A program made the translations under genes and the position numbers. This document shows, in pieces, positions 5,662 to 58,249 of a stretch of 58,249 nt of DNA. The stretch comes from Alphaproteobacteria bacterium (GTDB lineage Bacteria; Pseudomonadota; Alphaproteobacteria; RF32; CAG-239), in the NCBI GenBank assembly GCA_017961285.1, contig JAGCXO010000032.1, positions 1-58,249 on the forward strand, given 5' to 3'. The notes beneath the pieces are model-generated. The model searched no databases, was not told the origin of the DNA, and saw only the letters and a program-made list of their open reading frames with translations. Positions within the stretch are counted from its first letter, which is position 1. The number at the start of each line of letters is the position of its first letter.

Positions 5662-5669
5662 ATAGAGTT

Positions 5670-7002: not shown

Positions 7003-7156
7003 ACGGCTGCCCTCTATATAACATTTATTTGATTATAAAATATTTTTTTTATTAACGCAATAATTTTGACTTATTTTTATATTATGTTATGATAAAAGCA
7101 AAAAAAATGAACTTTGAAACCATTATTTTCGTTTTAGACCTTGTAAGGAGGTTGTT

Positions 7157-7408
7157 ATGGATAAAATTTCGGAACTGCTGAGGGAAGCAAAGCCCTTATA
7201 TTTGAAACGCAAGCGCAGACGCAACCAGATGAAAATTGCTTTTACCGCTGTTGTGGCCGCGTTTATGTTTTTGGTTGTAATGCCGCAAAATATATCTCTT
7301 AGAGATGGTGGACAGTGGCTTGATTATGAACAATATATCTCCGCCGGTTCATCTATTGAGGATATGGGGCTGCCGGTTGATGAATATGGGTTGTTGATGG
7401 TCAGCTGA
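7157..7408 (+). CDS. Small single-TM protein, putative anti-sigma factor
   Basis: Basic N-terminus, one TM segment; TGATG overlap with the ECF sigma gene. Confidence 0.5.
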   Translation: MDKISELLREAKPLYLKRKRRRNQMKIAFTAVVAAFMFLVVMPQNISLRDGGQWLDYEQYISAGSSIEDMGLPVDEYGLLMVS

Positions 7409-7902: not shown

Positions 7903-7904
7903 TT

Positions 7905-8357
7905 ATGAGAAATAAATTTTTGTTGTCATCTTGTTTGTCAGCAATGTTGGTTTTTGGGGCAAATGCTTTCGCTGTCGAAGATGTTGTGCCTGCAGATGTG
8001 CCGCCGGCTCCTCAACATCAACAATTTGAAGGGAAAAAAATGCACGAAATGCATCAGAAAAAATTGGCTGAAGATTTGGGCTTGACCGCCGAACAACAGG
8101 CAAAAGCCGAGGCCATTCGTAAAGCAGATTTTGAAAAAATGAAACCGCTCATAGAAGAGATGAAGGCTTTGCACGAGAAAATGGATAATATGAGAAAAGA
8201 AAATTTGGAGGCCTTTAAGGAAATTTTGACACCTGAACAAAAGGTGAAGTTTGAAAATATTATTGCTCAACATAAGGAAAAAATGGGAAATGCTCCAAAA
8301 CCTTATTTAGGTAAGCCCATGGGAATGGATAGAAGACATAAACTTCATAATCAATAA
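7905..8357 (+). CDS. Spy/CpxP-family periplasmic protein
   Basis: Signal peptide; two LTxEQ motifs (LGLTAEQQ, ILTPEQK). Confidence 0.85.
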   Translation: MRNKFLLSSCLSAMLVFGANAFAVEDVVPADVPPAPQHQQFEGKKMHEMHQKKLAEDLGLTAEQQAKAEAIRKADFEKMKPLIEEMKALHEKMDNMRKENLEAFKEILTPEQKVKFENIIAQHKEKMGNAPKPYLGKPMGMDRRHKLHNQ

Positions 8358-8361
8358 TGAT

Positions 8362-8392
8362 AAAAAAAGACCCGGCATGATGCCGGGTCTTT
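8362..8392. terminator. Bidirectional intrinsic terminator
   Basis: AAAGACCCGGCA-tga-TGCCGGGTCTTT between convergent genes. Confidence 0.85.
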
Positions 8393-8398
8393 AGTTTG

Positions 8399-9637: not shown

Positions 9638-9646
9638 TGTATCCTC

Positions 9647-10204
9647 TTATAGTTTGGTTAGTTTTAGGGCAATTTGTTCAGCCATTTGGTTGATGAGCTG
9701 ACTTTGGGCTTTGACAACATTGTTCAAATTGTCATCTACTGGCTCGCTGAAACGGCTGCGACCTTGATAGATGATATTACCGTTTTTGAAAATTGTCCAC
9801 CACGAATCAAGCGCAACTTGTTGGTTTAGGGTAATGTCAAATTTGCTGATTTCTACGCTGATTGTATAATCAAAATTTTCAGATATATATGTTTTGGGTT
9901 TTATGGTTGCTTTGGGCATATATAATGACATGTCGTCGGCCAAAATTCTGGAAATTGCATAACTCAACGGCTCTGCCCAGCGGTTGAATTCAGAAATTTT
10001 GAGTTCTGATGAGTCTGCTTCTTGCATCACCATTTGCGGGCGATCGGCATATTTTGGGACAATAACTTCATCTATACCGACAGTTATATTTTTTTGTGAA
10101 ATGACAACATCTTGGCTTGCGGCTTGCAAGTGGTAAAATGTCGAAGGTTTGCTTATGCCGCAACCGGCGAGCAGTAAAACAAATAGAAATACGATTTTTT
10201 TCAT
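9647..10204 (-). CDS. PqiC-like ABC transport auxiliary lipoprotein
   Basis: LLAGC lipobox; VIVPKYADRPQMV..SEFNRWAEPL. Confidence 0.85.
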   Translation of the reverse strand: MKKIVFLFVLLLAGCGISKPSTFYHLQAASQDVVISQKNITVGIDEVIVPKYADRPQMVMQEADSSELKISEFNRWAEPLSYAISRILADDMSLYMPKATIKPKTYISENFDYTISVEISKFDITLNQQVALDSWWTIFKNGNIIYQGRSRFSEPVDDNLNNVVKAQSQLINQMAEQIALKLTKL

Positions 10205-10207
10205 TTT

Positions 10208-10978
10208 TTAATATCCTCCTTTTCCTCTTAACAGCGCTTCGGGGTGACGTTCCATATAGTCGGCAAAATTGCCCAAAGTTTTGGCGGCCGATGAAATGTT
10301 TTGCATAGCTTGGTTGAAGCTATCCAAAGTTGTCGGAATATTGCGTGTTCTATCCGGAACAACCGAAAAATCGCTGACAAGTTTTTGCATTTGCGGCACA
10401 ACGTCATGGTTGAGACTGTCCAAAAACATATTGACTTTTTTGAAAGTTTCTCGGAGCGGAATTTCTTGTATGCCTTGAGAAATTTCGGCCATTTGCGAGA
10501 GAACAGTCGGAATTTCGGGGCGGTTATCTTCTGTGTGAGCTCTATATGTTGCTTTGTCTTCCTCTGGTATAAATTCCAGCTCTATCATAAGCTGTCCGGT
10601 GAGATAATTTTGGGTTGCAAGCCGCGCTCTCAAACCTTTGGCGACCAATTCTTTCAAAACCTGCCGAGCACTTTTACGAGGCTGTTTCGAGGTCAATTTT
10701 TTGGCACTGAATGAAACATATACCGGAATGCTGAAGTTTAGATCCTGCAAATCAGTTATAATATCTATTTTTGCCACTTTGCCGATAGATACACCTTTAA
10801 AAACTACCGGAGAACCTACATCTAAACCTTTTATGGATTCGGAAAAGTGCATTACCACCAAGTTTTTGTCGTTGCTTACTATCTTTTCGGATACAAACAT
10901 ACCGATAATTGCGGCAAATAAGGCTATTCCGCTGATGATAAAAAGACCTATCAGTTTGTTATTTGGTTTTTTGCGCAT
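10208..10978 (-). CDS. MCE/MlaD-family protein
   Basis: N-terminal TM; SIKGLDVGSPVVFKGVSIGKV; C-terminal ERHPEALLRGK. Confidence 0.9.
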   Translation of the reverse strand: MRKKPNNKLIGLFIISGIALFAAIIGMFVSEKIVSNDKNLVVMHFSESIKGLDVGSPVVFKGVSIGKVAKIDIITDLQDLNFSIPVYVSFSAKKLTSKQPRKSARQVLKELVAKGLRARLATQNYLTGQLMIELEFIPEEDKATYRAHTEDNRPEIPTVLSQMAEISQGIQEIPLRETFKKVNMFLDSLNHDVVPQMQKLVSDFSVVPDRTRNIPTTLDSFNQAMQNISSAAKTLGNFADYMERHPEALLRGKGGY

Positions 10979-11735
10979 CTTTTTGTTTTCCTCTGGTTAA
11001 AAATTGATAAACTGTTTCATTGGGCGGATTTTTCAGCATTTCGACGGGATTGCCCTGTCCGACAATCGATTTGCTGGTGCCATCCAAAAAAATCGAATTG
11101 TTGCCAATGGCAAATATTGAGGCAAGTTCGTGAGTTACAATAACAATGGTTGTGCCGAGACTGTGATTTATATCCAAAATCAAATCATCTAACAATTTTG
11201 AACTGATTGGATCGAGCCCGGCTGATGGCTCGTCAAAATATACAATTTCAGGATCTAGAGCCAAAGCTCTTGCCAAGCCGGCGCGCTTTTTCATACCGCC
11301 GCTGATTTCTGACGGATAGTATTCTTCAAAACCGGCAAGCCCTACCAATGCCAGTTTTAGTGATACCAGTTCTTTAATTTGCTCATCCGTGTAATCTCGG
11401 TATAGTTGCAAAGGCAAAGCAACATTTTCCGCCAAAGTCATGGAGCTGAATAAGGCGCCGCTTTGATATAAAATCCCGCTGTCTTGCATTATTTGTTTTT
11501 TTTGCTGTTGGTTTGTGCCGGTAAAATTTTTCCCGTTTATGAAAATTTTGCCGCTTATGGGAGGGACCAATCCCGTCAATACCCGAAGAAGACTGCTTTT
11601 TCCGCAGCCGGAACCGCCCATAATCACAAAAATGTCATGCTTATTAACATTAAAGTTAATTTCTTTTAAGAGAATATTATCGCCATATCCGACAGTCAGT
11701 TTTTCTGCTATAATTTGTTTGGTATCATCACTCAT
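10959..11735 (-). CDS. MlaF-like ABC ATP-binding subunit
   Basis: GGSGCGKS, YQSGALFSSMT, ISGGMKKRAGLARALALDP, DEPSAGLDP. Confidence 0.93.
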   Translation of the reverse strand: MSDDTKQIIAEKLTVGYGDNILLKEINFNVNKHDIFVIMGGSGCGKSSLLRVLTGLVPPISGKIFINGKNFTGTNQQQKKQIMQDSGILYQSGALFSSMTLAENVALPLQLYRDYTDEQIKELVSLKLALVGLAGFEEYYPSEISGGMKKRAGLARALALDPEIVYFDEPSAGLDPISSKLLDDLILDINHSLGTTIVIVTHELASIFAIGNNSIFLDGTSKSIVGQGNPVEMLKNPPNETVYQFLTRGKQKDAQKTK

Positions 11736-12850
11736 ATTTCAAGCTCCTGACATATTACGGTGATTATACCGGTCATCACTATCATCCAAATTATGGCCGA
11801 AACAACCGCTTTGGTCGTTGAAACACCGACACTGTCGGCATTGCGTCCGCAATATATGCCATAATAGCAACCGCAAACGGCAATAACAATTCCAAAAACA
11901 AAGCCGTGAAAAATGCCGACCAAAAAGTTATTTAAGCTTATGGCATTAACCGACATCTCATAATATTTTTGTATCGGTATGCCGAGCATGGTTACTCCGA
12001 CAAATCCACCGCCCAACATTCCCATAATATCTGACCACATGGTCAAAATCGGCATGGTAACTACCAAGGCCAGCATACGCGGTGTTACCAAAAAATCTAC
12101 CGGATTTATGCCCATGGTTTTCAGGGCATCAATCTCCTCGTTTACCTGCATTGTGCCGATGGCAGCGGCGTAGGAGGCTCCGGTTCTGCCGGCCATGATT
12201 ATGCCGGTCATTATTGCTCCCATAATGCGTGTCATACCGATGGTGACCAAGCTTGCTACATAGATTTGCGCTCCGAAACTGCTGAGTTGGACGGCACCGA
12301 CAAATGCCAATATCAAACCGACCATAAAGCTTATCAAAGAAACTATCGGCAGAGCATTGAGACTGCAGGCCTCCAATGCGAAAGAAAAATCTATTCCGCG
12401 CATTTGCGATTTTCCGATTATGACTTTGCCAAAGGCCTTGATTGATTGTCCAATAAAAGCCAGCCCTTTGCAAAAACTTTTGTATATATCATAGCCCCAC
12501 GCACCAATTGCCTCCAAACTAAATGACGACTTTTGCTCCGGTGACGGGGGATTGCGATTGACCGCAAATGCCAAATTGATCAGACTGCTCAAGCCTTGCG
12601 GAAAGCTCTTTGGCTCAATATTTATCTTTCGAAAATCGGCAATTTTTATCAACTCAAACAATATAACAACCAAGGTCGAATCCCACTGCCCGAGATTTTT
12701 GGCATCAATAGCAATTTTATTTATGGCACTATTTTTCGCAACATCGTATAAAGCACTTTTTTGCTTTTGGTTATCATATAAAAGATAGTCGCCGGAGAGA
12801 GTTATCTTCAGCAAATCTTTGTTTATTTCATATTTCAAATCTTCATTCAT
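11732..12850 (-). CDS. MlaE-like permease with N-terminal STAS-like domain
   Basis: GRTGASYAAAIGTMQVNEEIDALKTMG; GRNADSVGVSTTKAVV. Confidence 0.93.
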   Translation of the reverse strand: MNEDLKYEINKDLLKITLSGDYLLYDNQKQKSALYDVAKNSAINKIAIDAKNLGQWDSTLVVILFELIKIADFRKINIEPKSFPQGLSSLINLAFAVNRNPPSPEQKSSFSLEAIGAWGYDIYKSFCKGLAFIGQSIKAFGKVIIGKSQMRGIDFSFALEACSLNALPIVSLISFMVGLILAFVGAVQLSSFGAQIYVASLVTIGMTRIMGAIMTGIIMAGRTGASYAAAIGTMQVNEEIDALKTMGINPVDFLVTPRMLALVVTMPILTMWSDIMGMLGGGFVGVTMLGIPIQKYYEMSVNAISLNNFLVGIFHGFVFGIVIAVCGCYYGIYCGRNADSVGVSTTKAVVSAIIWMIVMTGIITVICQELEI

Positions 12851-12897
12851 TACTATAATTTATTATCTTTTATAATTATATCAATGAAAATTGCCTG

Positions 12898-13287
12898 CTA
12901 AACAGCAATATCCTGCAATTTTTTTATAATTTCCTCATCAGCAGGAGGAAATTTGTATTTATTCATATCACTCGCCTTTACCCAAGCAGAATTTTGGTGA
13001 ACATTGAGTTTGATTTTAGCATTTTCGGGAATGGTTACCATATAAACATGGAGACAAAACTCATTTTCGGGATAGCGGTAGGTTGTATCCATTATATGTT
13101 TGCCGACAGTTGCTTCAATATTAAGTTCTTCCCTTAATTCTCTTTTGAGGCATTCTTCAATACTCTCGCCTTCTTCCTGCTTTCCGCCTGGAAATTCCCA
13201 AAGTCCGGCCAAAGGTTTGCCTTCGGGACGTTGTCCGATAAAAATTTTTCCGTCACGGACAATAATTCCTGTGCCTACATCTTTCAT
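12898..13287 (-). CDS. mutT: MutT-like NUDIX hydrolase
   Basis: Nudix box WEFPGGKQEEGESIEECLKRELREEL; start placed at ATG 13287, 1 nt after the gltX stop. Confidence 0.85.
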   Translation of the reverse strand: MKDVGTGIIVRDGKIFIGQRPEGKPLAGLWEFPGGKQEEGESIEECLKRELREELNIEATVGKHIMDTTYRYPENEFCLHVYMVTIPENAKIKLNVHQNSAWVKASDMNKYKFPPADEEIIKKLQDIAV

Positions 13288-13288
13288 A

Positions 13289-14728
13289 TTATGCTCCCAG
13301 TTTTTGCAAAGCTTGTTGAACACGTTTTACGGTCTCTTCTTTACCTAAAATAACCGCAATTTCGGTAGCACCGCCTGATGTAGTTTCTTTTCCGCTCAAG
13401 GCTATGCGCAAGGGATAAAGAATTTGCCCGTTCTTCATTTCATTTGCTACGGCCAAATTTTTCAACTGTTCAAACAGATTTTCGTTGCTCCAATCGGAAA
13501 CGGTTTGCAGTGCAGGCAAAACCAGAGCCAAGGATTTTTTCGCAACTTCGGTATCAGTTTTCATTTTTTTGTTGGTATATAAATCCAATGAATAATCCGG
13601 CATTTGCTCCAAAAAGTCGGTTTGGGCAGCTATATCATTGAATGTTTCGATACGAGGCTGAAGAACGCTACTCAACATCGGCAGATTGAGATTGCGGGTT
13701 AAATATTTTTGATAATAAGGCATTGCCAATTCGTGGAATTTTTCGCTTGAGAGTTCACGAATATAGCAACCGTTCATCCATGTCAATTTTACAATATCAA
13801 AAATAGCCGGCGATTTGTTCAAGCGTTCGGTAGTAAAACATTTTTTGAGTTCCTCAAGTGAAAAAATTTCTTGGTCGGTGCCGGGATTCCAACCCAACAA
13901 GGCAATATAGTTCAAAATTGCTTCGGGTAAATAACCTTTTGCTACCAAATCTTGGAATGAAGCGTCGCCGTTGCGTTTGCTCAATTTGTGCTGGGCATCT
14001 TTCATGACTTGCGGAACGTGAACATAAATCGGCGGTGTCCAACCGAATGCTTCGTAGATAAGATTATATTTCGGAGTTGAGGAAATATATTCATTTCCGC
14101 GAACAACGTGGCTGATTTGCATCAAGTGATCATCAACAACGTTGGCAAAATTGTAGGTCGGTAAACCGTCGGTTTTGAGCAAAACTCCTTCATCAAGTTC
14201 ATCATAATCAATTTCTATATCCCCGTATACTTCGTCATGAAAGTGGGAAACACCTTGTTTGTTGATGGTTTGACGAATGGTGTATGGCTCTCCTTTTGCT
14301 ACGCGGGCTTTTGCTTCTTCTAAAGGAATATGTTTGCAGGGGTCTTTGAATTTGGTCGGAATTTTATTTTCTTCTTCGTCGTTTTCTTCTTCATCATGTG
14401 CGGCACAAAAGCAATAGTGAGCTCCGCCGAGTTCTACCAATTTGTGAGCATATTCCTGATATATTTTCTTTCTTTCCGACTGAATATACGGGCCAAAATC
14501 ACCGCCGATATCAGGACCTTCGTCCCAATCCATATGAACAGTTTTGAGAGTATTGTAAATGATGTCGGTAGAGCCTTCAACATAACGCTTTTGGTCAGTA
14601 TCTTCAATGCGCAACAAAAAATCTCCGCCTTGAGATTTGGCAATTAAATACTCATATAAAGCCGTGCGCAAGTTGCCTATGTGCATATATCCGGTTGGTG
14701 ATGGTGCAAAACGTGTTCGTATTTTCAT
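13289..14728 (-). CDS. gltX: Glutamate--tRNA ligase
   Basis: RTRFAPSPTG, HIGN, RIEDTD, KLSKR. Confidence 0.97.
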   Translation of the reverse strand: MKIRTRFAPSPTGYMHIGNLRTALYEYLIAKSQGGDFLLRIEDTDQKRYVEGSTDIIYNTLKTVHMDWDEGPDIGGDFGPYIQSERKKIYQEYAHKLVELGGAHYCFCAAHDEEENDEEENKIPTKFKDPCKHIPLEEAKARVAKGEPYTIRQTINKQGVSHFHDEVYGDIEIDYDELDEGVLLKTDGLPTYNFANVVDDHLMQISHVVRGNEYISSTPKYNLIYEAFGWTPPIYVHVPQVMKDAQHKLSKRNGDASFQDLVAKGYLPEAILNYIALLGWNPGTDQEIFSLEELKKCFTTERLNKSPAIFDIVKLTWMNGCYIRELSSEKFHELAMPYYQKYLTRNLNLPMLSSVLQPRIETFNDIAAQTDFLEQMPDYSLDLYTNKKMKTDTEVAKKSLALVLPALQTVSDWSNENLFEQLKNLAVANEMKNGQILYPLRIALSGKETTSGGATEIAVILGKEETVKRVQQALQKLGA

Positions 14729-48637: not shown

Positions 48638-50083
48638 ATGTTTAAAGCTCGAAATACGGTTTTTGGAATCGAAAAAGATCAGAATTTGGCCATAAGAGTT
48701 TTGGTTTTATCTATTCCTTCGTCTTTGGTTTTTGTTATTTTGGTTGCCCTGAAATTGTTGTCACCGAATATTGCCATTATGGCCTATTCGGCAGTGATTG
48801 TTTTTAATTTGTTTTGGCTGTTGCCGATTACTTTTGAGTTGCAACAACTGAAAAAATATATTTTTAATCTTTCGCAAGAGAATCCAGAACAAATTGAGCT
48901 TTTGCAGATTAATGAGAAAGATACTCAAGATATTGTCAACGCTGTTAATGAAATGCATCACTTTTGGACTAATAAGGCTGAAGCGTTGCAGGCTCAGACA
49001 ATGTCAGATACCGCAGTTCTTGATACTCTGCCCGATCCTATTTTGATGATTGATAAGAACGGGATTATATTGGGGGCTAATGATGCCGCTTATAAACTTT
49101 TGGGAAATAATATAAAAGAAAGCTCCGTTGATAAAATTTTTAATTCTAATAATTTTGTTAATGCAGTAGCAAGAGTTTTGCGCCAGGAAAGCAGTGCCGA
49201 AAATATTATTTTTTATGTTAATTCGGATAAGGATAACAATATTCCGCAAAAGAAACTTTATGCGCATATAAAACGTCTGCCCTGGATTTCTAAGGGAAAA
49301 ACCGTTGCTGTTATTTCTCTTTATGATTTCAGTAAAACCGTTAAAATTGAAAAAATGCAATCTGATTTTGTTGCTAATGCAAGTCATGAACTGAGAACTC
49401 CGCTTTCGGTTATTTCCGGTTTTATTGAAACTTTGCAAACCACTGCTAAAGATGATGAAAAAGCCAGAAATGAATTTTTAAAAATTATGGGTGAACAAGC
49501 CCGATATATGACTATTTTGATTGAGAATTTGCTTTCTCTTTCGCGAATTGAGCTTAATCAGGATAAAAATCCGGAGGATACTATTGTGTTGCCTCCTCTT
49601 ATTGATGATACTGTTGAGGCGGTCAGTTCAAAGGCAAACGAAAGACACATTGTTTTTGAAAAACAAATTGCAAAACAGCTACCAAATGTTGTGGCTGATT
49701 ATGGGCAAATCCGGCAACTATTGCAGAATTTGTGCGATAATGCCATAAAATATGGCGATGAGAACGGAAAAATAATTATAAGCGCAAAAAAATGCTCCAA
49801 AATTCCACCGGCAAAATCTTATCAGGTTGCAAGCGGTCCAGCTGTTGAGATTTCGGTAAATAATCGCGGGTCGCTTATTGCTCCTGAAGAAATAGACAGA
49901 CTGACAGAACGTTTTTATCGGATGAAAACCCATAAGGAAAAAAATATAAACGGAACCGGCTTGGGATTGGCGATTGTTAAGCATATCCTGATAAGGCACA
50001 AAGGCAATCTCAAGATTACATCTTCGGAAAAAGACGGAACCACTTTTACATTCTATTTACCGATTGAATTGGATAAAAATTAG
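48638..50083 (+). CDS. PhoR-like PAS sensor histidine kinase
   Basis: DFVANASHELRTPL, NLCDNAIKYG, RLTERFYR, GTGLGLAIVKH; start placed at ATG 48638. Confidence 0.88.
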   Translation: MFKARNTVFGIEKDQNLAIRVLVLSIPSSLVFVILVALKLLSPNIAIMAYSAVIVFNLFWLLPITFELQQLKKYIFNLSQENPEQIELLQINEKDTQDIVNAVNEMHHFWTNKAEALQAQTMSDTAVLDTLPDPILMIDKNGIILGANDAAYKLLGNNIKESSVDKIFNSNNFVNAVARVLRQESSAENIIFYVNSDKDNNIPQKKLYAHIKRLPWISKGKTVAVISLYDFSKTVKIEKMQSDFVANASHELRTPLSVISGFIETLQTTAKDDEKARNEFLKIMGEQARYMTILIENLLSLSRIELNQDKNPEDTIVLPPLIDDTVEAVSSKANERHIVFEKQIAKQLPNVVADYGQIRQLLQNLCDNAIKYGDENGKIIISAKKCSKIPPAKSYQVASGPAVEISVNNRGSLIAPEEIDRLTERFYRMKTHKEKNINGTGLGLAIVKHILIRHKGNLKITSSEKDGTTFTFYLPIELDKN

Positions 50084-51813
50084 TCAATTTCACTTGAAGG
50101 ATATATTATCAAAGGCTGATTTGGATCAATATCATTGCCTTGGTTTACGGCTTCGTGTAACGGAAGTTTGTAAAAATGCACAAATGTTACCGGTTTCATG
50201 GCGGTAGCTTTTTCTATACGACGGCGTATTTGCGAGCGTATATTATCCAGTATCGCAGTTTCTTGATAATTTAGTCTCGCGGCCGTTTCCGGCAGTAAAG
50301 GTGTTAAATCTTCAACTATTTTATCACGCAAAGCAGAAAATTCTTCAGGATTCCAAATATCTTTTGATGAAATACGCAATGCTATCAACTCCCATTTTTC
50401 ACCAAAAATTACACTAATGAAGACACTGCCGTTATAAGCTATTTGTTTGCGACGGCGGACAACTTCGGATTTTAGGGATATTATGACATTGCGGTCAACG
50501 GCCAAGACATCTGTCGGGACATTGGGCATTGGGACAACGGAATCTTTGCTCAATGCTATCGAGCCGCCGTTTTCAAGACTTATAATATCCTTTATACCGC
50601 AGGTTTCGGCAAAATATTTGTGTTCACGAATAAATTTTTTATCGCCGTGGACAGGCAATACTACTCGCGGGCGCAATATTTGATACATTGATTTAATTTC
50701 TTCTTTGCTACAATGGCCTGAGGTATGAACGAGCGCATCACTGTCAGTTATTACGTTAATGCCCTGGGCAATCAGTTTTTCTTGCATATTATTTATTTTT
50801 TCCTCGTTGCCGGGGATGATTTTTGAAGAAAATATCACACTATCGCCCTGACTTAGTTTTATGTAGGGATTTTGACCGTTGACAACAGAACTTAATACGC
50901 TTCGATAATTGGCCTGCGAGCCGGTGCATATGTATAATGCTTTGTCTGATGGTATGTTTTCACCTTCTTTGATATCGCAAAAATAGGGAACATCTTTAAG
51001 ATAACCGAGTTCTTTTGCTATTTTGACATTATTGAGCATACTACGACCGAACAAAATCGGGGTTCTTCCGGCTTTGTGTGCTGCAAGGATCAAACTTTCC
51101 ATTCTGGCAAGGTTGGAAGCAAAACAGGTGGCAACGACAGTGTTGGGAAGTCTTGGTATGAGATTGAGCAGACATTCTCTGACTTCGGATTCGCTGGGAA
51201 GCTCTTTATCTACCATTATGTTGGTTGAATCGCACACAAACATATCAACTCCTGAATCGCCCAATTCTTGCAGACGTTTGTAGTCGGTATGTAAATTGCT
51301 GATTTTGCCGTCATCAAAGCGCCAGTCGGTAGCATGTATCACTCTGATTCCTCCGGCGGTGATTGCAAGAGCTGACGTTTCCGGCACAGAGTGAACCATG
51401 GAGATAAACTCGACTTCAAAATTCGGCAATTTTACAATTGGATTTTCTTGGATGGATTGTAAAGGAACATTGTTTTCTAAATTATATTCCTTGAGACGAT
51501 TTTTTATTAGGCCGAGTGTGAAATCCGAGGCATATACCGGACATTTTAACAACGGCCAAACATGAGAGATTGCACCGAAATGGTCTTCGTGAGCGTGGGT
51601 TATGAAAATGCCTTCAAAATCTTTAGCTTTATCCGCAAAAAATGAGGCATCAGCAAAACAAAGATCTATGCCGGGGTAGTTATCATTTAGAAAACCATAT
51701 CCGCTATCTACCATTATGTATTTGCCGTTGTTTTCGTAGACATACATATTCATGCCTATCTCATCGGCGCCTCCCAAAGCTATAAAATGTATTTTTTTGT
51801 TTTCGTTATTCAT
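50080..51813 (-). CDS. rnj: Ribonuclease J
   Basis: ALGGADEIGMN, THAHEDH, HSVPE, HTSGH. Confidence 0.95.
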   Translation of the reverse strand: MNNENKKIHFIALGGADEIGMNMYVYENNGKYIMVDSGYGFLNDNYPGIDLCFADASFFADKAKDFEGIFITHAHEDHFGAISHVWPLLKCPVYASDFTLGLIKNRLKEYNLENNVPLQSIQENPIVKLPNFEVEFISMVHSVPETSALAITAGGIRVIHATDWRFDDGKISNLHTDYKRLQELGDSGVDMFVCDSTNIMVDKELPSESEVRECLLNLIPRLPNTVVATCFASNLARMESLILAAHKAGRTPILFGRSMLNNVKIAKELGYLKDVPYFCDIKEGENIPSDKALYICTGSQANYRSVLSSVVNGQNPYIKLSQGDSVIFSSKIIPGNEEKINNMQEKLIAQGINVITDSDALVHTSGHCSKEEIKSMYQILRPRVVLPVHGDKKFIREHKYFAETCGIKDIISLENGGSIALSKDSVVPMPNVPTDVLAVDRNVIISLKSEVVRRRKQIAYNGSVFISVIFGEKWELIALRISSKDIWNPEEFSALRDKIVEDLTPLLPETAARLNYQETAILDNIRSQIRRRIEKATAMKPVTFVHFYKLPLHEAVNQGNDIDPNQPLIIYPSSEID

Positions 51814-51822: not shown

Positions 51823-52545
51823 TCAAAAATAAATATCACCGGCACTGATTGTCTTTATATCATTGTCAGAGGTTTTTAGCAGCAAATAACCTTGTTTGTC
51901 AAGCCCGGCAAATTCTCCGCTGATTTGTGTTTTTTCTCCTCTGACGGTTATTTTTTGGCCGATTTTATGTGCGTTATCAAGCCACATATCAATAATTTTT
52001 TGTTGTCCTTCTTTTTGATATGTCGAAACTATATTTGTAAATGCTTCTAAGTATGTCCGCATAAATCCTATTCTGTCAACGGCTATTCCGTGTTCTTTCA
52101 GGCAAGTAGCACTATAAGTTGCCGTGTTATCTATGTCGGGGGCCGCACAAATGTTCACGCCGATACCGATTATAACTTTTGAAGGCGGAACAATTTCCAA
52201 TAGAATACCGGATATTTTTCGATTGTTTATCAATACGTCGTTTGGCCATTTGAGCATTATATCGCAATCAGGTTTATAGTTTTTAATTGAATTAAATATT
52301 GCAAGGGATGATATCAGACCTAAAATGTTTGTATTTTCACTTTTCCAGCTGAAACCCAGTGTCATAAATAAATTTCCATCCAGACCAATCCATTTGTGTC
52401 CGAAGCGCCCTCTTCCATCTGTCTGCATTTTTGCAGTAACGACAATTTTGGATTTTTCCACTATAAGTTTTTTGGCCTCATCATTTGTGCTTTTGAGAGT
52501 GTCATAGTCTATCCATTGCCAATCATCAATAGCAATAAACGTCAT
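51823..52545 (-). CDS. birA: Biotin--protein ligase (monofunctional)
   Basis: STND, QTDGRGR, LKWPNDVL, KISGILLE, IGIGVN. Confidence 0.93.
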   Translation of the reverse strand: MTFIAIDDWQWIDYDTLKSTNDEAKKLIVEKSKIVVTAKMQTDGRGRFGHKWIGLDGNLFMTLGFSWKSENTNILGLISSLAIFNSIKNYKPDCDIMLKWPNDVLINNRKISGILLEIVPPSKVIIGIGVNICAAPDIDNTATYSATCLKEHGIAVDRIGFMRTYLEAFTNIVSTYQKEGQQKIIDMWLDNAHKIGQKITVRGEKTQISGEFAGLDKQGYLLLKTSDNDIKTISAGDIYF

Positions 52546-53963
52546 TTCAGTACCGCCATAAGTGTTTTTTCTATATCGTGCATCAGATATTGGGGATCAA
52601 TAATTATTATAACCATAACCAAAATATTTATGATCATACAAATATACACCCCTTTATCAACAATATCAAAACTGTTGTTTCTGGGTTCAAAATATACAGC
52701 GGTAATTATTTTTAAGTAGGCATATACTAAGATTATCATCGCAAACAGAACCGTGCCGATAATAATGAATTTGCCATCTATGACCATATTGTTGATAATT
52801 GAAAGTTTGCCCAAAAAGCCGAGCATTGGAGGAATGCCGATTAAGGATATCATAAAGAGCAACAGTGCGGCCGAAAGATATGGGCGCTGTGAGTGGACAC
52901 CTTTGATATCTTCAAGGCATGAAAGATATTTGCCTTTGCTGCGATAGCCGTAAAACACCGTATATATTCCGCTTACCGCAATTATATAAACAAGCAAATA
53001 GATAAAAGATGAAAGCAGGCTGTAATTGTTCAACGGAAGCAGACCAAGCAGAATTACCCCCATACAATATAGACCGCTGTATGCAAAAATTTTGCGAAGA
53101 TTATCCTCGCTGTTTGCTCCCACGGCACCCATAAAAACAGATAAAATACCGCAGATGGTAAATGTTTTATAAAAATATGGCAGTAAAGGTGCAAAAACAT
53201 TGGCAATAATGTTTATAAAACAAGCAAAATAGGCAAGAATGGGCACTATGGTTAAGTATCCGGCAACCGGCAAAATTGAAATTGAGACAACTTCTGCAAA
53301 CCAAAAATGGAACGGGGCTATCCCCATCATAAACAGCAATGCCATAAATATCAGCGACGCCGATATCAGTCCGATATTAAGAGATATTTGCTTTGTTTGA
53401 ATGCTTTGCAATATATTTGTATAATTTAAGTTCGAAATGTGGGTATGTAATATGAAAACTCCGGAAAAAAAAGCAATAATAAAAAGCAGACTGAAAATGA
53501 AATATTTTGCGGAAAGCTTTTTTTCTTTCGTGGTTTCTTCGATCAAAAGAAGAGGATAATTGCATAAAAAGCTTAATGATAAACTGAAGCATAAAATCCA
53601 TAGATTGGCGGCGGAGATTGCCAATGAGATACACAAAAGATTAAACATCATTATTGTGTAGAATGCAAAACTCGGAGTATTTTTGCTGATAAAGCGCTTT
53701 ACTGATAAATAGTTCCAGATGAGAACCAGTATATATATTAAAAACTTAAACAAGTTGGTGAAACTGTTGTTATAAAAATATTCGGCGGTATTCCTATTGT
53801 AAAAGATAGCACTAAATATTGCTGCCAATAAAATAAAAAAGCGGCTTATGGTATAAAATGTTTTTGGAGTGTATTGATGGCGGAATATACGCACAATCGT
53901 CATTGTGATAATTCCTATAAAAAGCAATATTTCCGGAGATAAAGCTATATATTTTTGAAGCAT
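52542..53963 (-). CDS. nuoN: Divergent NuoN-like antiporter-type subunit
   Basis: About 14 TM; APFHFW, IGIPPMLGFLGK; nuoN-birA-rnj synteny. Confidence 0.8.
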   Translation of the reverse strand: MLQKYIALSPEILLFIGIITMTIVRIFRHQYTPKTFYTISRFFILLAAIFSAIFYNRNTAEYFYNNSFTNLFKFLIYILVLIWNYLSVKRFISKNTPSFAFYTIMMFNLLCISLAISAANLWILCFSLSLSFLCNYPLLLIEETTKEKKLSAKYFIFSLLFIIAFFSGVFILHTHISNLNYTNILQSIQTKQISLNIGLISASLIFMALLFMMGIAPFHFWFAEVVSISILPVAGYLTIVPILAYFACFINIIANVFAPLLPYFYKTFTICGILSVFMGAVGANSEDNLRKIFAYSGLYCMGVILLGLLPLNNYSLLSSFIYLLVYIIAVSGIYTVFYGYRSKGKYLSCLEDIKGVHSQRPYLSAALLLFMISLIGIPPMLGFLGKLSIINNMVIDGKFIIIGTVLFAMIILVYAYLKIITAVYFEPRNNSFDIVDKGVYICMIINILVMVIIIIDPQYLMHDIEKTLMAVLK

Positions 53964-53966
53964 TTT

Positions 53967-55397
53967 TTACCCCATATACCAAAACGGATTGATGAATGTT
54001 GCCAGCAATAAAATTATGACCAGCATTAAAAAGACAAATACCGAAGCCGAAATATCTTGCGCACACACTGCGTTTTCTTGAGGTTCGGTTTGAGGATAAC
54101 GCAGATAAAACAGATGCTGTAAAAGGCTCAATGAACTGAGTACTATTGCCAGTAAAATAAATATGGACATTTTGAGGTTAAATTTAAGAAGGCCTGCAAA
54201 TATCAACATATTATTTAAGAATATTGATGACAGGGGCAGTCCTACGGCCGCTAAAATAAAAAATGATAATGCAAATGAACTGCGTTTTATATTGCACAAT
54301 ATTCCACATTCCATAAGCCCGTTGCACTGTTTTTCTTTTTCGATATGAGATAAAATTATCTCTATCGCCGCTACCACTATTATCCATGCAAAAAGAGAAA
54401 AACCTATGTTTTCCAACAATGTATCTGTCGGCAAAAGTGCTCCCAAAAGGTAGAAAATATAATATACCGAGCTGTATGAAAACAGCTTATATCTCACATC
54501 TCTGTTGCTAAATCCTATTAAAGCTATTACCAACATTGTAATTATGCTGATTATCTCAAGAGCAACAAGATATGGCGTCATTATGCTGGGTGCTGTCAGA
54601 GGGAAAAAGCGAATAAGCCCATAGACACCAGTTAGCGGCAATAAGTTGGCAATGATAAACACCAGCGGATTGGAGAGATTTGTGTTGATTGATGAAATCC
54701 AATAATGGAAAGGCCAAACAGGTATGCGTGATAAAAATGCCACAAAAATTGCACCCCAAACGAAAAACTGCAATTTAGGAATTAGGTGAGCATTACCAAT
54801 GTTTTGAATATTGAAATTTTGTTGGTTGAATAATATACAAAGCGCTATAAACAGAAAAACGGCACCTAACAGATTGTATAAGAAAAATCTGTATAAAATG
54901 TCTTGTTTTTTGATGTTGCCAAATATCCCGACAAGCATAAATAACGGCAGGAGCATTGCCTCAAAAAAGATATAGAATGAAAATAAATCGTATGACAAGA
55001 GATAATTTGTTATCATACTTAAGAAAAGCAGAGCAAATATTATCAAAGTTTTTTGACGATAGGTGTTGTTGCGTATCCCGATAAGGCCTAACAGAACGGC
55101 ACAATGCACCGCGGCTATCAACAACAGTGAAAAAATATCGGCACCGAAAACAAACTCTATTTTGGGCGTGCTGAGCCAATTTATGTTGCTTACGAACTGA
55201 ATATCTCCTTCTCCGCCGGCCACGGCACGAAGGGCAAAAAATATTATCAGCAAATTTGTTAATGTTACCAGCATTCCGAGTGAGAGGATGTTATTTCCCT
55301 TGGCTTCGGCGTTGTCTTTGGAGATGAGGGCAAACAATACTCCCAACAAAGGAATGGACATTATTAAGGGTAAAAAGATATTGGTTTGTTCTATCAT
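53967..55397 (-). CDS. nuoM: Divergent NuoM-like antiporter-type subunit
   Basis: DLFSFYIFFEAMLLP, PVWPFHYW, VGLP. Confidence 0.8.
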   Translation of the reverse strand: MIEQTNIFLPLIMSIPLLGVLFALISKDNAEAKGNNILSLGMLVTLTNLLIIFFALRAVAGGEGDIQFVSNINWLSTPKIEFVFGADIFSLLLIAAVHCAVLLGLIGIRNNTYRQKTLIIFALLFLSMITNYLLSYDLFSFYIFFEAMLLPLFMLVGIFGNIKKQDILYRFFLYNLLGAVFLFIALCILFNQQNFNIQNIGNAHLIPKLQFFVWGAIFVAFLSRIPVWPFHYWISSINTNLSNPLVFIIANLLPLTGVYGLIRFFPLTAPSIMTPYLVALEIISIITMLVIALIGFSNRDVRYKLFSYSSVYYIFYLLGALLPTDTLLENIGFSLFAWIIVVAAIEIILSHIEKEKQCNGLMECGILCNIKRSSFALSFFILAAVGLPLSSIFLNNMLIFAGLLKFNLKMSIFILLAIVLSSLSLLQHLFYLRYPQTEPQENAVCAQDISASVFVFLMLVIILLLATFINPFWYMG

Positions 55398-57049
55398 TTT
55401 GCAACTCCTTTATAATAAGTTGCAGCAAAAAGGACTATTCCGAATATTATGAGTAATATTTTTCCCCATATTTTGTCATTATGCAGGGATTTGAATGTAA
55501 AAATGAAAAAAAGAATCGAGTTTTTTATTGATGATATTATCGTTCTCTCTACCAAAAGAAAATCTATCGCTATGCGCAAACTTCTGCCGATTGCTTGAAT
55601 CGGATGAAGAATCATCCCCGAATAAATTGCTGTTGTAACATCTCCCGCTTGTATAAAACTTATGTTGTGGGCTTTGCCGAAACATTGCAACGGAAATATT
55701 AAGAACAGCAACAACCAAGTTATTATGATGCCTATAAAATATGCATATGTTATTGTCAGGTGGTCGTTATGCAATATAAATGCTACTAAAAATGACAAGA
55801 CCGGTAAGCTGATAAAAAATAATCGGCCGGAACTTATTGATGACTGTTGGCTGCCTTGATTTAGATATATTTCTGAGATGGTTTGTGATGTTATCAGCAT
55901 AATCAGTAATAGTCCACTCAGTGATAGCACTGTATTGTCTTTTGAAAAAATCAGCCAGTTAATGCAATATAGGCATATTGCTGCAAAATATATCAAAAAT
56001 AACATCTTAGAGTGACAGATATTGCCGGCTATTTTTGAAATATAGGTCTCATCACCGGAATCTTTGCTGATTATATTTAGAGAAACATTGAAAAGATATG
56101 CAGATGTGAGCAAAACAAAAAATTTATTGAGCGGGAAATTCGGCAACCATACATAGCCGGCATAGACCAACCCCCATAACAGCATTGCATTATATGAAGC
56201 TTTGCGCTTTAGGCTGTCTGATGAAATATAGCCCGAAAAGCCCCAAACTATGCTGAGACATGAAAAAATTTTTATCAGAGATTCCGAATAGCGGGAAATT
56301 GTCAAAATATTGTTCAACAAAAGCAGAGATATCAAGCCTATCAGCGGCGTGCTGGCAAAAAGAATAAAATTGAGGCGGTTAAAACTGAGTGAGGCTATTT
56401 TTTGATAGGTTACATGGAAAAAAGCCAAACCTGATTTGATAAAAATTGCCGCTAAAAGCATTATGGCAATAAAATCTCTGTGATGCCAGCTTTTGGTGTA
56501 TTCTTCCAAATGGGTTATATCAACTTTTCCCTGCTGTCCAAGAATTATGGCCAATATGTTAAGCAAAACAAAATCGGCAATAAAGTTGCCATAAATGTAG
56601 TATCTTTTGGCATTTAGGTCGTTAATCATTCCATAAACCACAACATCAGCCATTCCGACTGCCGCTAACAGTTGTATATAATTTATTGAACAAAAAGCCG
56701 TAATCATAAAAACACAATTGAAAAGTAGCAAGCCGCTGATGATATTTGGATTTTGCTCTTGCTGTGATATGGTATTGTAATATATGGCGATAGTATGCAG
56801 AATTAAAACGCCCAATATACCATAAACACCTGACTGCCATGGGTTTAGCTCTATGGACACCGGAAGATTGGGAATCGCTTGCCAAACAAAAGAAATTGCG
56901 TTGCCGGGATATGGGCTGAGAATGGAAAATATGCTATATCCCATTATGCATATAACTGCTAACGACCAAAAGGTTTTCATTCTCTTTGCCGGCAACAAGA
57001 GAGACAAAAACCCTACCGCAACCAATAAAAATATAAAATTTATAAACAT
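55394..57049 (-). CDS. nuoL: Highly divergent NuoL-like subunit
   Basis: Multi-TM; NYIQL, FIKSG..FH; C-terminal DFLLVE; position upstream of nuoM. Confidence 0.65.
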   Translation of the reverse strand: MFINFIFLLVAVGFLSLLLPAKRMKTFWSLAVICIMGYSIFSILSPYPGNAISFVWQAIPNLPVSIELNPWQSGVYGILGVLILHTIAIYYNTISQQEQNPNIISGLLLFNCVFMITAFCSINYIQLLAAVGMADVVVYGMINDLNAKRYYIYGNFIADFVLLNILAIILGQQGKVDITHLEEYTKSWHHRDFIAIMLLAAIFIKSGLAFFHVTYQKIASLSFNRLNFILFASTPLIGLISLLLLNNILTISRYSESLIKIFSCLSIVWGFSGYISSDSLKRKASYNAMLLWGLVYAGYVWLPNFPLNKFFVLLTSAYLFNVSLNIISKDSGDETYISKIAGNICHSKMLFLIYFAAICLYCINWLIFSKDNTVLSLSGLLLIMLITSQTISEIYLNQGSQQSSISSGRLFFISLPVLSFLVAFILHNDHLTITYAYFIGIIITWLLLFLIFPLQCFGKAHNISFIQAGDVTTAIYSGMILHPIQAIGRSLRIAIDFLLVERTIISSIKNSILFFIFTFKSLHNDKIWGKILLIIFGIVLFAATYYKGVAK

Positions 57050-57076
57050 TTATGACTCAATATTATGTTATAAGCA

Positions 57077-57105
57077 AAAACAAGGGCATTAACAGCCCTT
57101 GTTTT
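57077..57105. terminator. Intrinsic terminator just upstream of nuoL
   Basis: AAAACAAGGGC-attaaca-GCCCTTGTTTT. Confidence 0.8.
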
Positions 57106-57124: not shown

Positions 57125-57439
57125 TCAGCCTAAATCCTTGATACTGCGAATAATACGCATAGGGACTTTGTATTCACGGGCGACATCGTCATTTTCTATT
57201 TCGGCCACCAGAACTTCACTAACCGATTTTAGCGGTGCATGAGCCTCTTCGGCAATATCATTGAGAACAAAAGCGCTCTCTCGGCTGCGATAAAGCAACG
57301 CAGTATCGCCTCCATCGTATAAGATACGCGGATTTTCGGGACCGCCTTCGCAATACTCGATAATAATCAATATTTCACCGGCGGTGTTTTGGAGCATGTC
57401 ATAACGCCCCTTTTGGTTGATTTTATTATTCTCAGACAT
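57125..57439 (-). CDS. Hypothetical acidic protein
   Basis: GAGGT SD before ATG 57439; no family recognised. Confidence 0.65.
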   Translation of the reverse strand: MSENNKINQKGRYDMLQNTAGEILIIIEYCEGGPENPRILYDGGDTALLYRSRESAFVLNDIAEEAHAPLKSVSEVLVAEIENDDVAREYKVPMRIIRSIKDLG

Positions 57440-57591
57440 AGAAACGACCTCATAATTTTTTTTGTTTAACATCAATTTTGAGTGGATGATAACACATAAT
57501 TATTAACAAATAAACTATTTTTTACAATTTATTGTTTTTTTTGTTGACGAACTGTTTTTTATAGATTATACAACAGTTCGTTATCTTATGT

Positions 57592-57667
57592 GGGCCCGTA
57601 GCTCAGTCGGTAGAGCATTTGACTTTTAATCAAAGGGTCGTGGGTTCGAATCCCGCCGGGCTCACCA
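57592..57667 (+). tRNA. tRNA-Lys(UUU)
   Basis: 76-nt cloverleaf, anticodon loop CTTTTAA, GTTCGAATC T-loop, encoded CCA. Confidence 0.97.
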
Positions 57668-57672
57668 ATAGG

Positions 57673-57700
57673 AAAACTCCTCTTTATGAGGAGTTTTTTT
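57673..57700 (+). terminator. tRNA-Lys terminator
   Basis: AAAACTCCTC-tttat-GAGGAGTTTTTTT. Confidence 0.85.
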
Positions 57701-57849
57701 GTATCTTTTTCTTGGCGGGATTCGAACCCGAGGGTTCGTTCAATTCCGACTATTTCTTTTGTTTCGCTTCGTTTTCTCTTGCTCACAAAAGAAAGTCTCA
57801 TTGTGTCTCCTTGAAAAAACTGCATTAAAGCAGTTTTTGCCGCGGCCAT

Positions 57850-57897
57850 CCGCCGGGCTCACCAATAAAAAAACTCCTCCTTGTGGGGAGTTTTTTT
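57850..57897 (+). repeat. Second copy of the tRNA-Lys 3' end plus terminator
   Basis: CCGCCGGGCTCACCAATA (18/18 with 57653-57670), then an AAACTCC..GGAGTTT hairpin. Confidence 0.92.
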
Positions 57898-58016
57898 GTT
57901 GGTCAAGTTGGGATAAGAACCCACGAAAAAGTGGGTTCGACAAGGAGGAGCAGGCGAGACGGAAGTATCGCCGCTCTTGCGACGACGCAGCGGCGAGTGA
58001 AACGTAGCCAATCATA

Positions 58017-58062
58017 GCCGGGCTCACCAATAAAAGAGGTCACCTTTGTGGTGGCCTTTTTT
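58017..58062 (+). repeat. Third copy of the tRNA-Lys 3' end plus terminator
   Basis: GCCGGGCTCACCAATA (16/16), then AGGTCACC/GGTGGCCT hairpin and T-tract. Confidence 0.9.
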
Positions 58063-58249
58063 GTGTTTTAAAACGGCGGGCTTCAAAATAAGAGACAAAA
58101 AATGACAAAAATATCGTATCATGAGTGGGAAAATGTGGTATAGTGTAATTCCTGATAATTAGTATAGAAATTTTTTTAATTATATCCTGTCGCCTTGGGC
58201 AAGTTACATAAAAGGATTCACGCCCCAAAAAAAATAAAAAAAATAAAAA

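What the first reader, a model, noticed from the sequence alone, without database searches (positions are those of the whole stretch)
52542..57105. Stand-alone NuoL/M/N with most proton-pumping residues substituted but intact reading frames
Seen: three full-length ORFs in the ancestral nuoLMN-birA-rnj context, preceded by a terminator and an unrelated gene instead of nuoA-K. By-eye alignment with E. coli numbering: NuoN E133 to S (FSLSLSF), K217 to M (FMMGIAPFH), K247 to I, K395 kept; NuoM E144 kept, K234 to R, K265 to L, E407 to N; NuoL E144 lost, K229 kept. Established: these charges form the central axis required for pumping. Inference: a repurposed or vestigial complex I membrane arm maintained for another role.
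Basis: partly seen in the sequence, partly recalled or inferred. Interest (0 to 1): 0.72.

Follow-up and report, generated by a model that had tools for sequence, protein, structure and literature searches.

The report
Pump-dead orphan complex I membrane arm
A family of anaerobic gut Alphaproteobacteria has deleted most of respiratory complex I but keeps its three outermost membrane subunits (NuoL, NuoM, NuoN) under strong selection although the charged residues that carry protons are gone, so the trio must now do something other than pump protons.

Summary
Three intact minus-strand ORFs (55394-57049, 53967-55397, 52542-53963) are divergent NuoL, NuoM and NuoN. They are followed by birA and rnj, as in canonical alphaproteobacterial nuo operons. 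They are preceded by a conserved terminator and an unrelated small gene.

NuoL is invisible to Pfam and PDB sequence searches, but profile-profile comparison and a predicted fold identify it, lateral helix included.

The genome has no nuoA, B, C, D, H, J or K. Its NuoE/F/G-like hits belong to a HydABC [FeFe]-hydrogenase. It is a fermenter with Rnf and an F-ATPase; cydAB, sdh, ndh and menA were not found.

The pattern is family-wide. In 151 genomes, NuoD occurs only in the one sister-family genome, while 147 keep the antiporter-like genes as open frames. dN/dS is 0.02-0.14, lower than birA in all but one pair. Conservation peaks at the N|M and M|L interfaces and the lateral helix.

At least three separate deletion events show that loss is possible and that the downstream genes survive it.

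Best reading: a selected, autonomous, non-pumping N-M-L membrane complex of unknown function. No description was found in the searched literature, though earlier notes of this scan report it.

The parts
55394..57049 (-). NuoL-like subunit (551 aa): 16 predicted TM helices plus a long lateral helix (residues 471-523) and a C-terminal anchor helix. K229 equivalent (K205) and D178 equivalent (D159) are kept. E144, H254, H334, H338 and K342 are lost; K399 is kept only here and in a few scattered relatives.
   Evidence: No hit alone. hhalign against canonical NuoL gives 97.6 %, E 3e-12, over 540 columns. AF2 model has pLDDT 79 and pTM 0.80. Foldseek top 50 hits are all NuoL/ND5/NdhF.
53967..55397 (-). 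NuoM-like subunit (476 aa), the most constrained of the three. E144 and H241 are kept. K234R, K265L, E407N and H322Y are fixed (or nearly so) family-wide. Its start overlaps the L stop by 4 nt.
   Evidence: PF00361 E 3e-30 and TIGR01972 174 bits against a 264-bit cut-off. There are 48 family-specific conserved positions. dN/dS is 0.024-0.076. Best PDB relatives are plant mitochondrial ND4 and Paracoccus NuoM.
52542..53963 (-). NuoN-like subunit (473 aa). E133, K217 and K247 are replaced by small or hydrophobic residues that vary between species. K395 and H224 are kept. Its stop overlaps the birA start by 4 nt.
   Evidence: PF00361 E 6e-30 and TIGR01770 195 bits against a 333-bit cut-off. Best PDB hit is Paracoccus NuoN, 8qby_N, E 1e-26. 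Residue columns are. dN/dS is 0.04-0.13.
57077..57105 (-). Intrinsic-terminator hairpin (CAAGGGC-loop-GCCCTTG plus a T run) between the upstream small gene and the L-like gene. It marks the place where nuoA-K used to be.
   Evidence: The same AAGGGC/GCCCTT hairpin is found in all 25 genus loci analysed.
51823..52545 (-). birA (biotin-protein ligase), overlapping the N-like gene by 4 nt. It is the ancestral downstream neighbour of nuoN.
   Evidence: Pfam hits. nuoN-birA-rnj order is seen in three class-level relatives with full nuoA-N operons.
50080..51813 (-). rnj (RNase J), the last gene of the conserved L-M-N-birA-rnj block.
   Evidence: Pfam hits. Synteny is shown.
57125..57442 (-). Conserved ~104-aa soluble beta-rich protein of unknown family ('up'). 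It is the ancestral neighbour upstream of the nuo operon and probably not part of the module.
   Evidence: No Pfam or NCBIfam hit. It is 46-86 % identical across the order. It sits upstream of nuoA in the sister family. It remains next to birA in genomes that deleted L-M-N. AF2 pLDDT is 87 with no PDB fold match.

Best explanation
The three ORFs are the vertically inherited nuoL, nuoM and nuoN of an ancestral alphaproteobacterial nuoA-N-birA-rnj operon.

In the ancestor of this family of small-genome, fermentative gut Alphaproteobacteria, nuoA-K were deleted. The genes for the distal membrane arm survived. These bacteria have Rnf (in many members), HydABC and an F-ATPase. In this genome, cytochrome bd, SDH/FRD, NDH-2 and MenA were not found.

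Shown:
- The trio is a tight operon with overlapping or nearly abutting coding sequences.
- It is under strong purifying selection.
- It keeps the antiporter-like fold and NuoL's lateral helix.
- It has lost most of the central axis of Lys/Glu/His residues that canonical complex I needs for lateral proton transfer and pumping.

Inferred:
- The proteins still assemble as an N-M-L complex clamped by the lateral helix. Conservation is highest at the N(TM12)|M(TM5) and M|L(TM5-8) contacts and on the lateral helix. It is lowest on the edges that no longer have a partner (the proximal side of N) or never had one (the distal TM12-15 of L).
- The complex does not pump protons by the canonical relay.
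- It serves a redox-independent role in the membrane, with the remodelled but highly constrained M subunit as its core.
- I think the most likely role is structural or organisational. A transport activity with changed chemistry is the main alternative.
For: Identity and descent:
- PF00361 hits for M and N.
- hhalign 97.6 % and a NuoL fold for L.
- Closest solved relatives are Paracoccus and mitochondrial subunits.
- nuoN-birA-rnj order occurs in relatives with full operons.

No partners:
- No nuoA, B, C, D, H, J or K in the genome.
- NuoD is absent from all 150 family genomes sampled.
- NuoK/MrpC is absent.
- The NuoEFG-like hits belong to a HydABC [FeFe]-hydrogenase.
- No cydAB, sdh, ndh or menA was found.

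Selection:
- 147 of 151 genomes keep the genes as open frames.
- Synteny holds in 27 genus loci and 13 other genera.
- dN/dS is 0.06-0.14 for L, 0.02-0.08 for M and 0.04-0.13 for N, against 0.11-0.24 for birA and 0.02-0.07 for rnj.

Loss of pump residues is family-wide, and fixed in M.

The R175(L)/E407(M) pair, described as an inter-subunit ion pair in PMC5552823, is neutralised on both sides.

Natural deletions leave 'up' next to birA.
Against: - No expression, assembly or activity data exist.
- M keeps a polar, non-ionisable core (E146, R224, H231, N243, Y313, N395, N396). This could still line a conduction path.
- L keeps K229, D178 and the N-side 'uptake' Lys K305 in most species.
- The interface argument rests on helix assignments from a single-chain AF2 model and on published structures. 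It does not rest on a model of the complex.
- Four genomes live without the trio, so the role is dispensable in some settings.
Confidence: 0.55

Rival explanations
1. The trio is still an ion or solute transporter. Examples would be a simplified cation/proton antiporter, a uniporter or a channel. It would use a rebuilt polar pathway, mainly in M, in place of the canonical Lys/Glu relay.
For: - M has 48 family-specific conserved positions. They include polar residues at the former relay sites: R224, N243, Y313, N330, S334 and N395-N396.
- The Pro/Gly breaks of TM7 and TM12 are conserved in M and N.
- L keeps K229, D178 and K305. An Asp one turn after E144 is invariant in the genus and present in 7 of 13 other genera.
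- A fermenter living on Rnf and an F-ATPase would benefit from an ion-homeostasis device.
Against: - The central TM8 Lys is replaced by Leu (M), by variable Ile/Val/Pro and others (N), or the TM8 His by Leu/Ser (L).
- Terminal TM12 residues are lost in M and L.
- The interior of N is not even conserved within the genus.
- The distal half of L, where the canonical exit path lies, is the least conserved part.
- No MrpB, C, E, F or G-type partners were detected.
Confidence: 0.27
2. The genes are functionless relics. They persist only because they carry the promoter and translational coupling for the essential downstream genes birA and rnj, or because selection merely avoids toxic misfolded membrane proteins.
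For: - The coding sequences overlap or nearly abut: L/M and N/birA overlap by 4 nt, and M/N are 3 nt apart.
- L evolves fast, at 22-30 % identity between genera.
- Four genomes have lost the trio.
Against: - dN/dS is as low as that of RNase J for M, and lower than that of birA in every pair for M and in all but one pair for L and N.
- Lengths and frames are kept across about 18 genera.
- Many new residues are fixed in M.
- Clean deletions that join the upstream gene directly to birA are viable. Operon architecture therefore does not force retention, and relics would have been deleted in these 1-2 Mb genomes.
Confidence: 0.07
3. The trio is part of a complete or hybrid complex whose other subunits are encoded elsewhere or lie in an assembly gap. 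Candidates would be complex I, Mrp, or a group-4 hydrogenase or FHL-type enzyme.
For: The genome is a 92 %-complete draft in 51 contigs. NuoE/F/G-like genes exist on another contig.
Against: - NuoD is absent from all 150 family genomes, nearly all of them at least 95 % complete.
- NuoK/MrpC is absent.
- No NuoA, B, C, H or J was found by tblastn.
- The NuoEFG-like genes carry H-cluster motifs and form a HydABC operon.
- The presence of Rnf does not track the trio.
Confidence: 0.02

Closest known systems
NuoL/NuoM/NuoN (ND5/ND4/ND2), the antiporter-like subunits of alphaproteobacterial and mitochondrial respiratory complex I (e.g. Paracoccus denitrificans 8qby)
   Same: - Homologous end to end, in the same gene order and with the same downstream neighbours (birA, rnj).
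- Same fold, including the broken TM7 and TM12 helices and NuoL's lateral helix and TM16 anchor.
- Closest sequence relatives among solved structures.
   Different: - No Q-module, N-module or NuoH/A/J/K.
- The central axis is dismantled: TM8 Lys/His gone in all three, TM12 Glu/Lys gone in M and L, and the TM5/TM7 pair gone in N.
- Scores fall far below the NCBIfam cut-offs.
- The host shows no detectable respiratory chain: cydAB, sdh, ndh and menA were not found.
Mrp (Mnh/Pha) multisubunit Na+/H+ antiporter, MrpA/MrpD
   Same: It is also a redox-independent membrane complex built from PF00361 antiporter-like subunits, with a NuoL/MrpA-type lateral helix.
   Different: - Mrp needs MrpB, C, E, F and G. 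MrpC/NuoK (PF00420) is absent here.
- Mrp keeps the Lys/Glu relay, which this trio lacks.
- By best family models, best PDB hits and synteny, this trio descends from NuoL/M/N and not from MrpA/D.
Partial complex I operons lacking nuoEFG (11-subunit enzymes of Campylobacter, cyanobacteria and archaeal Fpo; reviewed in PMC4453560)
   Same: They are modular subsets of complex I retained and re-used after loss of other modules.
   Different: Those keep the quinone module, NuoH/A/J/K and the intact proton relay, and they remain redox-driven pumps. Here only the distal arm remains, and the relay is gone.
Retention of NuoE/NuoF (24- and 51-kDa subunits) in hydrogenosomes after loss of the rest of complex I
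   Same: A single module of complex I survives the loss of respiration in an anaerobe and is re-used. This analogy rests on general knowledge; PMC6993867 appeared in a literature search but was not read.
   Different: There the soluble NADH-oxidising module survives with its catalytic cofactor sites and a known partner, the hydrogenase. Here the membrane module survives without its catalytic residues and with no known partner.

Membership tests
Respiratory complex I (NDH-1, Nuo) | Quinone-reducing module and E-channel subunits (NuoB, C, D, H, A, J, K) present | tested here: not met
   tblastn with E. coli and five alphaproteobacterial references finds none in the genome. PF00346 is absent from all 150 family genomes. 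PF00420 is absent from the family apart from weak, scattered hits.
Respiratory complex I (NDH-1, Nuo) | Central axis of conserved Glu (TM5), Lys (TM7), Lys/His (TM8) and Lys/Glu (TM12) in each antiporter-like subunit | tested here: not met
   In N, E133, K217 and K247 are lost. In M, K234R, K265L and E407N. In L, E144, H254, H334, H338, K342 and K399 are lost.
Respiratory complex I (NDH-1, Nuo) | NuoL-type C-terminal lateral helix plus TM16 anchor | tested here: met
   hhalign aligns through the C-terminus. The AF2 model has a 53-residue helix at 471-523 followed by a TM helix at 527-550. Foldseek gives full-length matches to NuoL/ND5 chains.
Proton_antipo_M superfamily (PF00361) | Sequence match above the Pfam gathering threshold | tested here: met
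   M scores 105.8 bits and N 104.9 bits against a 21.5-bit cut-off. L fails alone but is joined by profile-profile comparison and by fold. A few L orthologues carry a precomputed PF00361 hit.
NuoM / NuoN equivalogs (NCBIfam TIGR01972, TIGR01770, NF0044xx) | Score above the curated cut-off | tested here: not met
   174 vs 263.8 bits for M and 195 vs 332.6 bits for N. No model matches L.
Mrp-type cation/proton antiporter | Small subunits MrpB, C, E, F, G alongside MrpA/D | tested here: not met
   PF00420 (MrpC/NuoK) is absent. The genome has only two PF00361 genes, both in this operon. The flanking genes are 'up', birA and rnj. MrpB, E, F and G were not searched individually.
Group-4 [NiFe] hydrogenase / FHL / Mbh-type complexes | NuoB/NuoD-like hydrogenase small and large subunits and a NuoH-like anchor | tested here: not met
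   No NuoB, D or H homologues were found.
DAB (DabA/DabB) CO2-uptake complex | A DabA (PF10070) gene adjacent to a single NuoL-like DabB | tested here: not met
   Adjacency only: the neighbours are NuoM-like, 'up' and birA in all 40 loci inspected. No genome-wide PF10070 search was run.

The most novel reading that the evidence does not exclude
The distal membrane arm of complex I (N-M-L with its lateral-helix clamp) can live on as an autonomous, selectively maintained membrane machine. It would do so after the redox modules, the E-channel and the proton relay have all been lost. It would have acquired a new activity centred on a rebuilt NuoM core, either an unconventional transport or sensing function or a membrane-organising role. 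Earlier notes of this scan report similar charge-stripped arms in unrelated phyla. If those hold, this would be a recurrent second life of the antiporter-like module and not a single oddity.
Probability: 0.3. Interest if true: 0.82.

Novelty: new variant of a known kind. Interest (0 to 1): 0.63.

Why it matters
Complex I's antiporter-like subunits are assumed to exist only to move ions. Their buried Lys/Glu/His residues are read as purely catalytic.

Here nature has done the experiment. It removed the driver (nuoA-K) and most of the relay residues, then kept the three proteins under strong selection across a whole bacterial family. This has three consequences:

- It argues that the distal arm can fold and probably assemble on its own.
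- It separates residues likely to be needed for structure or assembly from those needed only for pumping. Kept residues are L-K229/D178, M-E144/R234/H241 and N-K395/H224. Lost residues are the TM8 Lys/His in all three, the TM12 Glu/Lys in M and L, and the TM5/TM7 pair in N.
- It points to an unknown, redox-independent function for a very widespread membrane-protein architecture.

It also documents how an alphaproteobacterial lineage dismantled respiration in the gut. The sister family kept a different subset of nuo genes.

Tried and rejected
- **Direct searches with the L-like protein.** Pfam, NCBIfam and PDB phmmer at E up to 10 found nothing. Only a genus alignment, hhalign and AF2/Foldseek resolved it.
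- **NuoE/F/G tblastn hits on contig C8.** These looked like complex I remnants. They are a HydABC-type [FeFe]-hydrogenase with classic H-cluster motifs.
- **Rnf as an obligate partner.** Rejected. Five trio-bearing genomes lack RnfD, and two trio-less genomes have it.
- **The upstream 104-aa protein as a new subunit.** Unlikely. It is separated by a conserved terminator. It sits upstream of nuoA in the sister family. It is kept where the trio was deleted. It has no family or fold match.
- **Functional replacement in the trio-less genus g27.** The gap holds a 262-284-aa signal-peptide-bearing protein of unknown function that shows no similarity to the trio.
- **The same variant elsewhere in the class.** In 401 genomes of 308 genera, only this family scores high.
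- **Literature.** Five searches found nothing on nuoL-M-N-only remnants. PMC4453560 treats only operons lacking nuoEFG.
- **Taxon name.** Sources say only 'uncultured Alphaproteobacteria bacterium'. I did not establish the named order or family.
Full report
**What is there**

The window is a whole 58-kb contig of a 1.2-Mb draft genome that is 92 % complete. Source names and earlier notes describe the organism as an uncultured gut alphaproteobacterium.

On the minus strand lie, in order:
- a small gene, 'up' (57125-57442);
- a hairpin terminator (57077-57105);
- three large membrane-protein ORFs: 55394-57049 (551 aa), 53967-55397 (476 aa) and 52542-53963 (473 aa);
- birA (51823-52545);
- rnj (50080-51813).

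The first and second ORFs overlap by 4 nt, as do the third ORF and birA. The second and third are 3 nt apart.

**Identity of the three ORFs**

The second and third ORFs match PF00361 over the whole model (E 3e-30 and 6e-30). Their best NCBIfam models are NuoM and NuoN, but at 174 and 195 bits against cut-offs of 264 and 333. Their closest solved relatives are Paracoccus denitrificans and plant mitochondrial subunits, ahead of E. coli and Thermus.

The first ORF gives no hit at all on its own. I collected its orthologues from 21 related species (A1) and compared them with an alignment of six canonical NuoL sequences (A2). The result was 97.6 % probability, E 3e-12, over 540 columns from the N-terminus to the C-terminus.

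An AlphaFold2 model (pLDDT 79, pTM 0.80) has 16 TM helices, with a 53-residue helix (471-523) before the last one. Its 50 best PDB matches are all NuoL/ND5/NdhF chains (probability 1.0, TM 0.58-0.69). So the first ORF is a very divergent NuoL that keeps the lateral helix.

**The substitutions**

It also extends them to the whole family.

| Subunit | E. coli residue | State in this family |
|---|---|---|
| NuoM | K234 | R in all |
| NuoM | K265 | L (I in one) |
| NuoM | E407 | N in all |
| NuoM | H322 | Y in nearly all |
| NuoM | H348 | aromatic |
| NuoM | H241 | kept in all |
| NuoM | E144 | kept in 23 of 27 |
| NuoN | E133, K217, K247 | small or hydrophobic residues that differ between species |
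| NuoN | K395 | kept in the genus and in about half of the other genera |
| NuoN | H224 | kept almost everywhere |
| NuoL | K229 | kept in all |
| NuoL | D178 | kept as an acidic residue (D or E) in all but one |
| NuoL | E144, H254, H334, H338, K342 | gone |
| NuoL | K399 | kept only in a few scattered species |

The only candidate for a shifted residue is an Asp one helical turn after NuoL E144. It is invariant in the genus and present in 7 of 13 other genera.

The pair L-R175/M-E407 is described as an inter-subunit ion pair in Thermus (PMC5552823). It is neutralised on both sides here. The central axis of charged residues is described as essential in the current mechanistic literature (bioRxiv 10.64898/2026.10.08.757549).

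**Are the other subunits elsewhere? No.**

- tblastn with E. coli and five alphaproteobacterial NuoA-N sets finds no NuoA, B, C, D, H, J or K in the genome.
- The NuoE/F/G-like hits on contig C8 are a HydC-HydB-HydA operon with H-cluster motifs.
- The genome has an F-type ATP synthase and Rnf. cydAB, sdh, sucAB, ndh and menA were not found. It is therefore a fermenter with no detectable respiratory chain.
- Across 151 genomes of the order (nearly all one family, about 20 genera, mostly at least 95 % complete), NuoD occurs only in the single sister-family genome. NuoK/MrpC also occurs, in effect, only there.

**Ancestry**

In class-level relatives with full operons, nuoN is followed directly by birA and rnj. 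The window therefore holds the 3' end of an ancestral nuoA-N-birA-rnj block.

The sister-family genome G019 carries, after the same 'up' gene, weak-scoring nuoA-B-C-D-H-J-K, then a truncated nuoM, then nuoN-birA-rnj. It has no nuoE, F, G, I or L in the block. That is a different remnant of the same operon.

**Selection**

- PF00361 genes are present as open frames of about 475 aa in 147 of 151 genomes.
- The order up-L-M-N-birA-rnj holds in the genus loci. L-M-N-birA-rnj holds in all 13 other genera sampled, with 'up' detected next to it in 10.
- Nei-Gojobori dN/dS on twelve pairs is 0.06-0.14 (L), 0.024-0.076 (M) and 0.04-0.13 (N). The comparison values are 0.11-0.24 for birA and 0.02-0.07 for rnj.
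- M has 29 positions shared with canonical NuoM and 48 newly fixed family-specific ones.
- In a sample of 401 genomes from 308 genera of the class, only this family has this variant.

**Where the constraint lies**

- In L, the best conserved parts are TM5-8 and the lateral helix. TM12-15 at the distal tip are the worst.
- In N, the TM5-6 region is the worst conserved. In complex I, that region faces NuoK/J/A. The TM12 region facing M is the best conserved.
- M is the most conserved overall, with a maximum around TM5.

This is the pattern expected if selection keeps the three proteins assembled. It is not the pattern expected if selection keeps three ion paths working. The helix assignments come from the AF2 model and published structures, so this step is inference.

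**Natural knock-outs**

Four genomes lack the trio:
- In G076, 'up' abuts birA.
- In G059, about 500 bp of an L remnant is left.
- In the two g27 genomes, an unrelated 262-284-aa protein with a signal peptide fills the gap.

Loss has thus happened at least three times. It does not harm the arrangement of birA-rnj, and it proceeds by deletion rather than slow decay. This weakens the idea that the genes are kept only as the 5' part of an essential operon.

Rnf presence does not correlate with the trio.

**Conclusion**

The most likely state is an autonomous, selected N-M-L membrane complex that no longer runs the canonical proton relay.

Whether it is structural or transports something by a rebuilt polar path in M cannot be decided with sequence data. 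I put 0.55 on the non-pumping structural reading, 0.27 on a transporter with changed chemistry, 0.07 on a relic and 0.02 on hidden partners.

No description of such a remnant was found in the literature. Earlier notes of this scan report the same thing in other genomes of this clade, and similar charge-stripped arms in other phyla. They agree with this report but are not independent evidence.

Noticed in passing
L118 (G019:C81:8000-23175), about 4250-13446: The only sister-family genome keeps a different, also weak-scoring remnant of the operon. After 'up' come nuoA(87 aa)-nuoB(139)-nuoC(208)-nuoD(365)-nuoH(278)-nuoJ(210)-nuoK(99), then a truncated nuoM(348), then nuoN-birA-rnj. There is no nuoE, F, G, I or L in the block. 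Several relay residues are already replaced (M K265I; N K247Q). This may be a second kind of redox-dead complex I remnant. The MAG is only 79 % complete.
   Followed up: partly
window 57125-57442 (-): A ~104-aa soluble, beta-rich protein is conserved at 46-86 % identity across the order. Conserved motifs include GGPENPR, LLYRSRES and VAREY. It has no Pfam or NCBIfam family. Despite a confident model (pLDDT 87), it has no PDB fold match. It is the ancestral neighbour upstream of the nuo operon.
   Followed up: partly
G000 contig C8: 8838-12792 (+): A HydC-HydB-HydA operon lies here (160, 559 and 590 aa). It is an electron-bifurcating-type [FeFe]-hydrogenase with NuoE- and NuoF-like subunits. 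It is the source of the only NuoE/F/G-like hits in the genome. Together with Rnf (C15) and an F-ATPase, it defines a fermentative energy metabolism.
   Followed up: partly
window 57592-58249: tRNA-Lys(UUU) lies at 57592-57667 (+). It is followed by two further copies of its 3' end (GCCGGGCTCACCAAT), each next to a hairpin terminator. This resembles leftover attachment-site repeats of integrated elements. In several related genomes the contig likewise ends within about 1-2.5 kb upstream of the L-like gene.
   Followed up: no
L121 3056-3910 (-) and L122 7920-8708 (+): In genus g27, the place of L-M-N is taken by a 262-284-aa acidic protein of unknown function with an N-terminal signal peptide.
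   Followed up: no
G147:C27:92677-92838 and G172:C4:1497-1631: There are weak PF00420 (NuoK-like) matches (20-23 bits, below the cut-off) inside 565-569-aa ORFs. In G172 that ORF is probably the L-like gene, because the M-like gene lies just downstream on the same contig. These are probably hydrophobic noise but were not examined.
   Followed up: no
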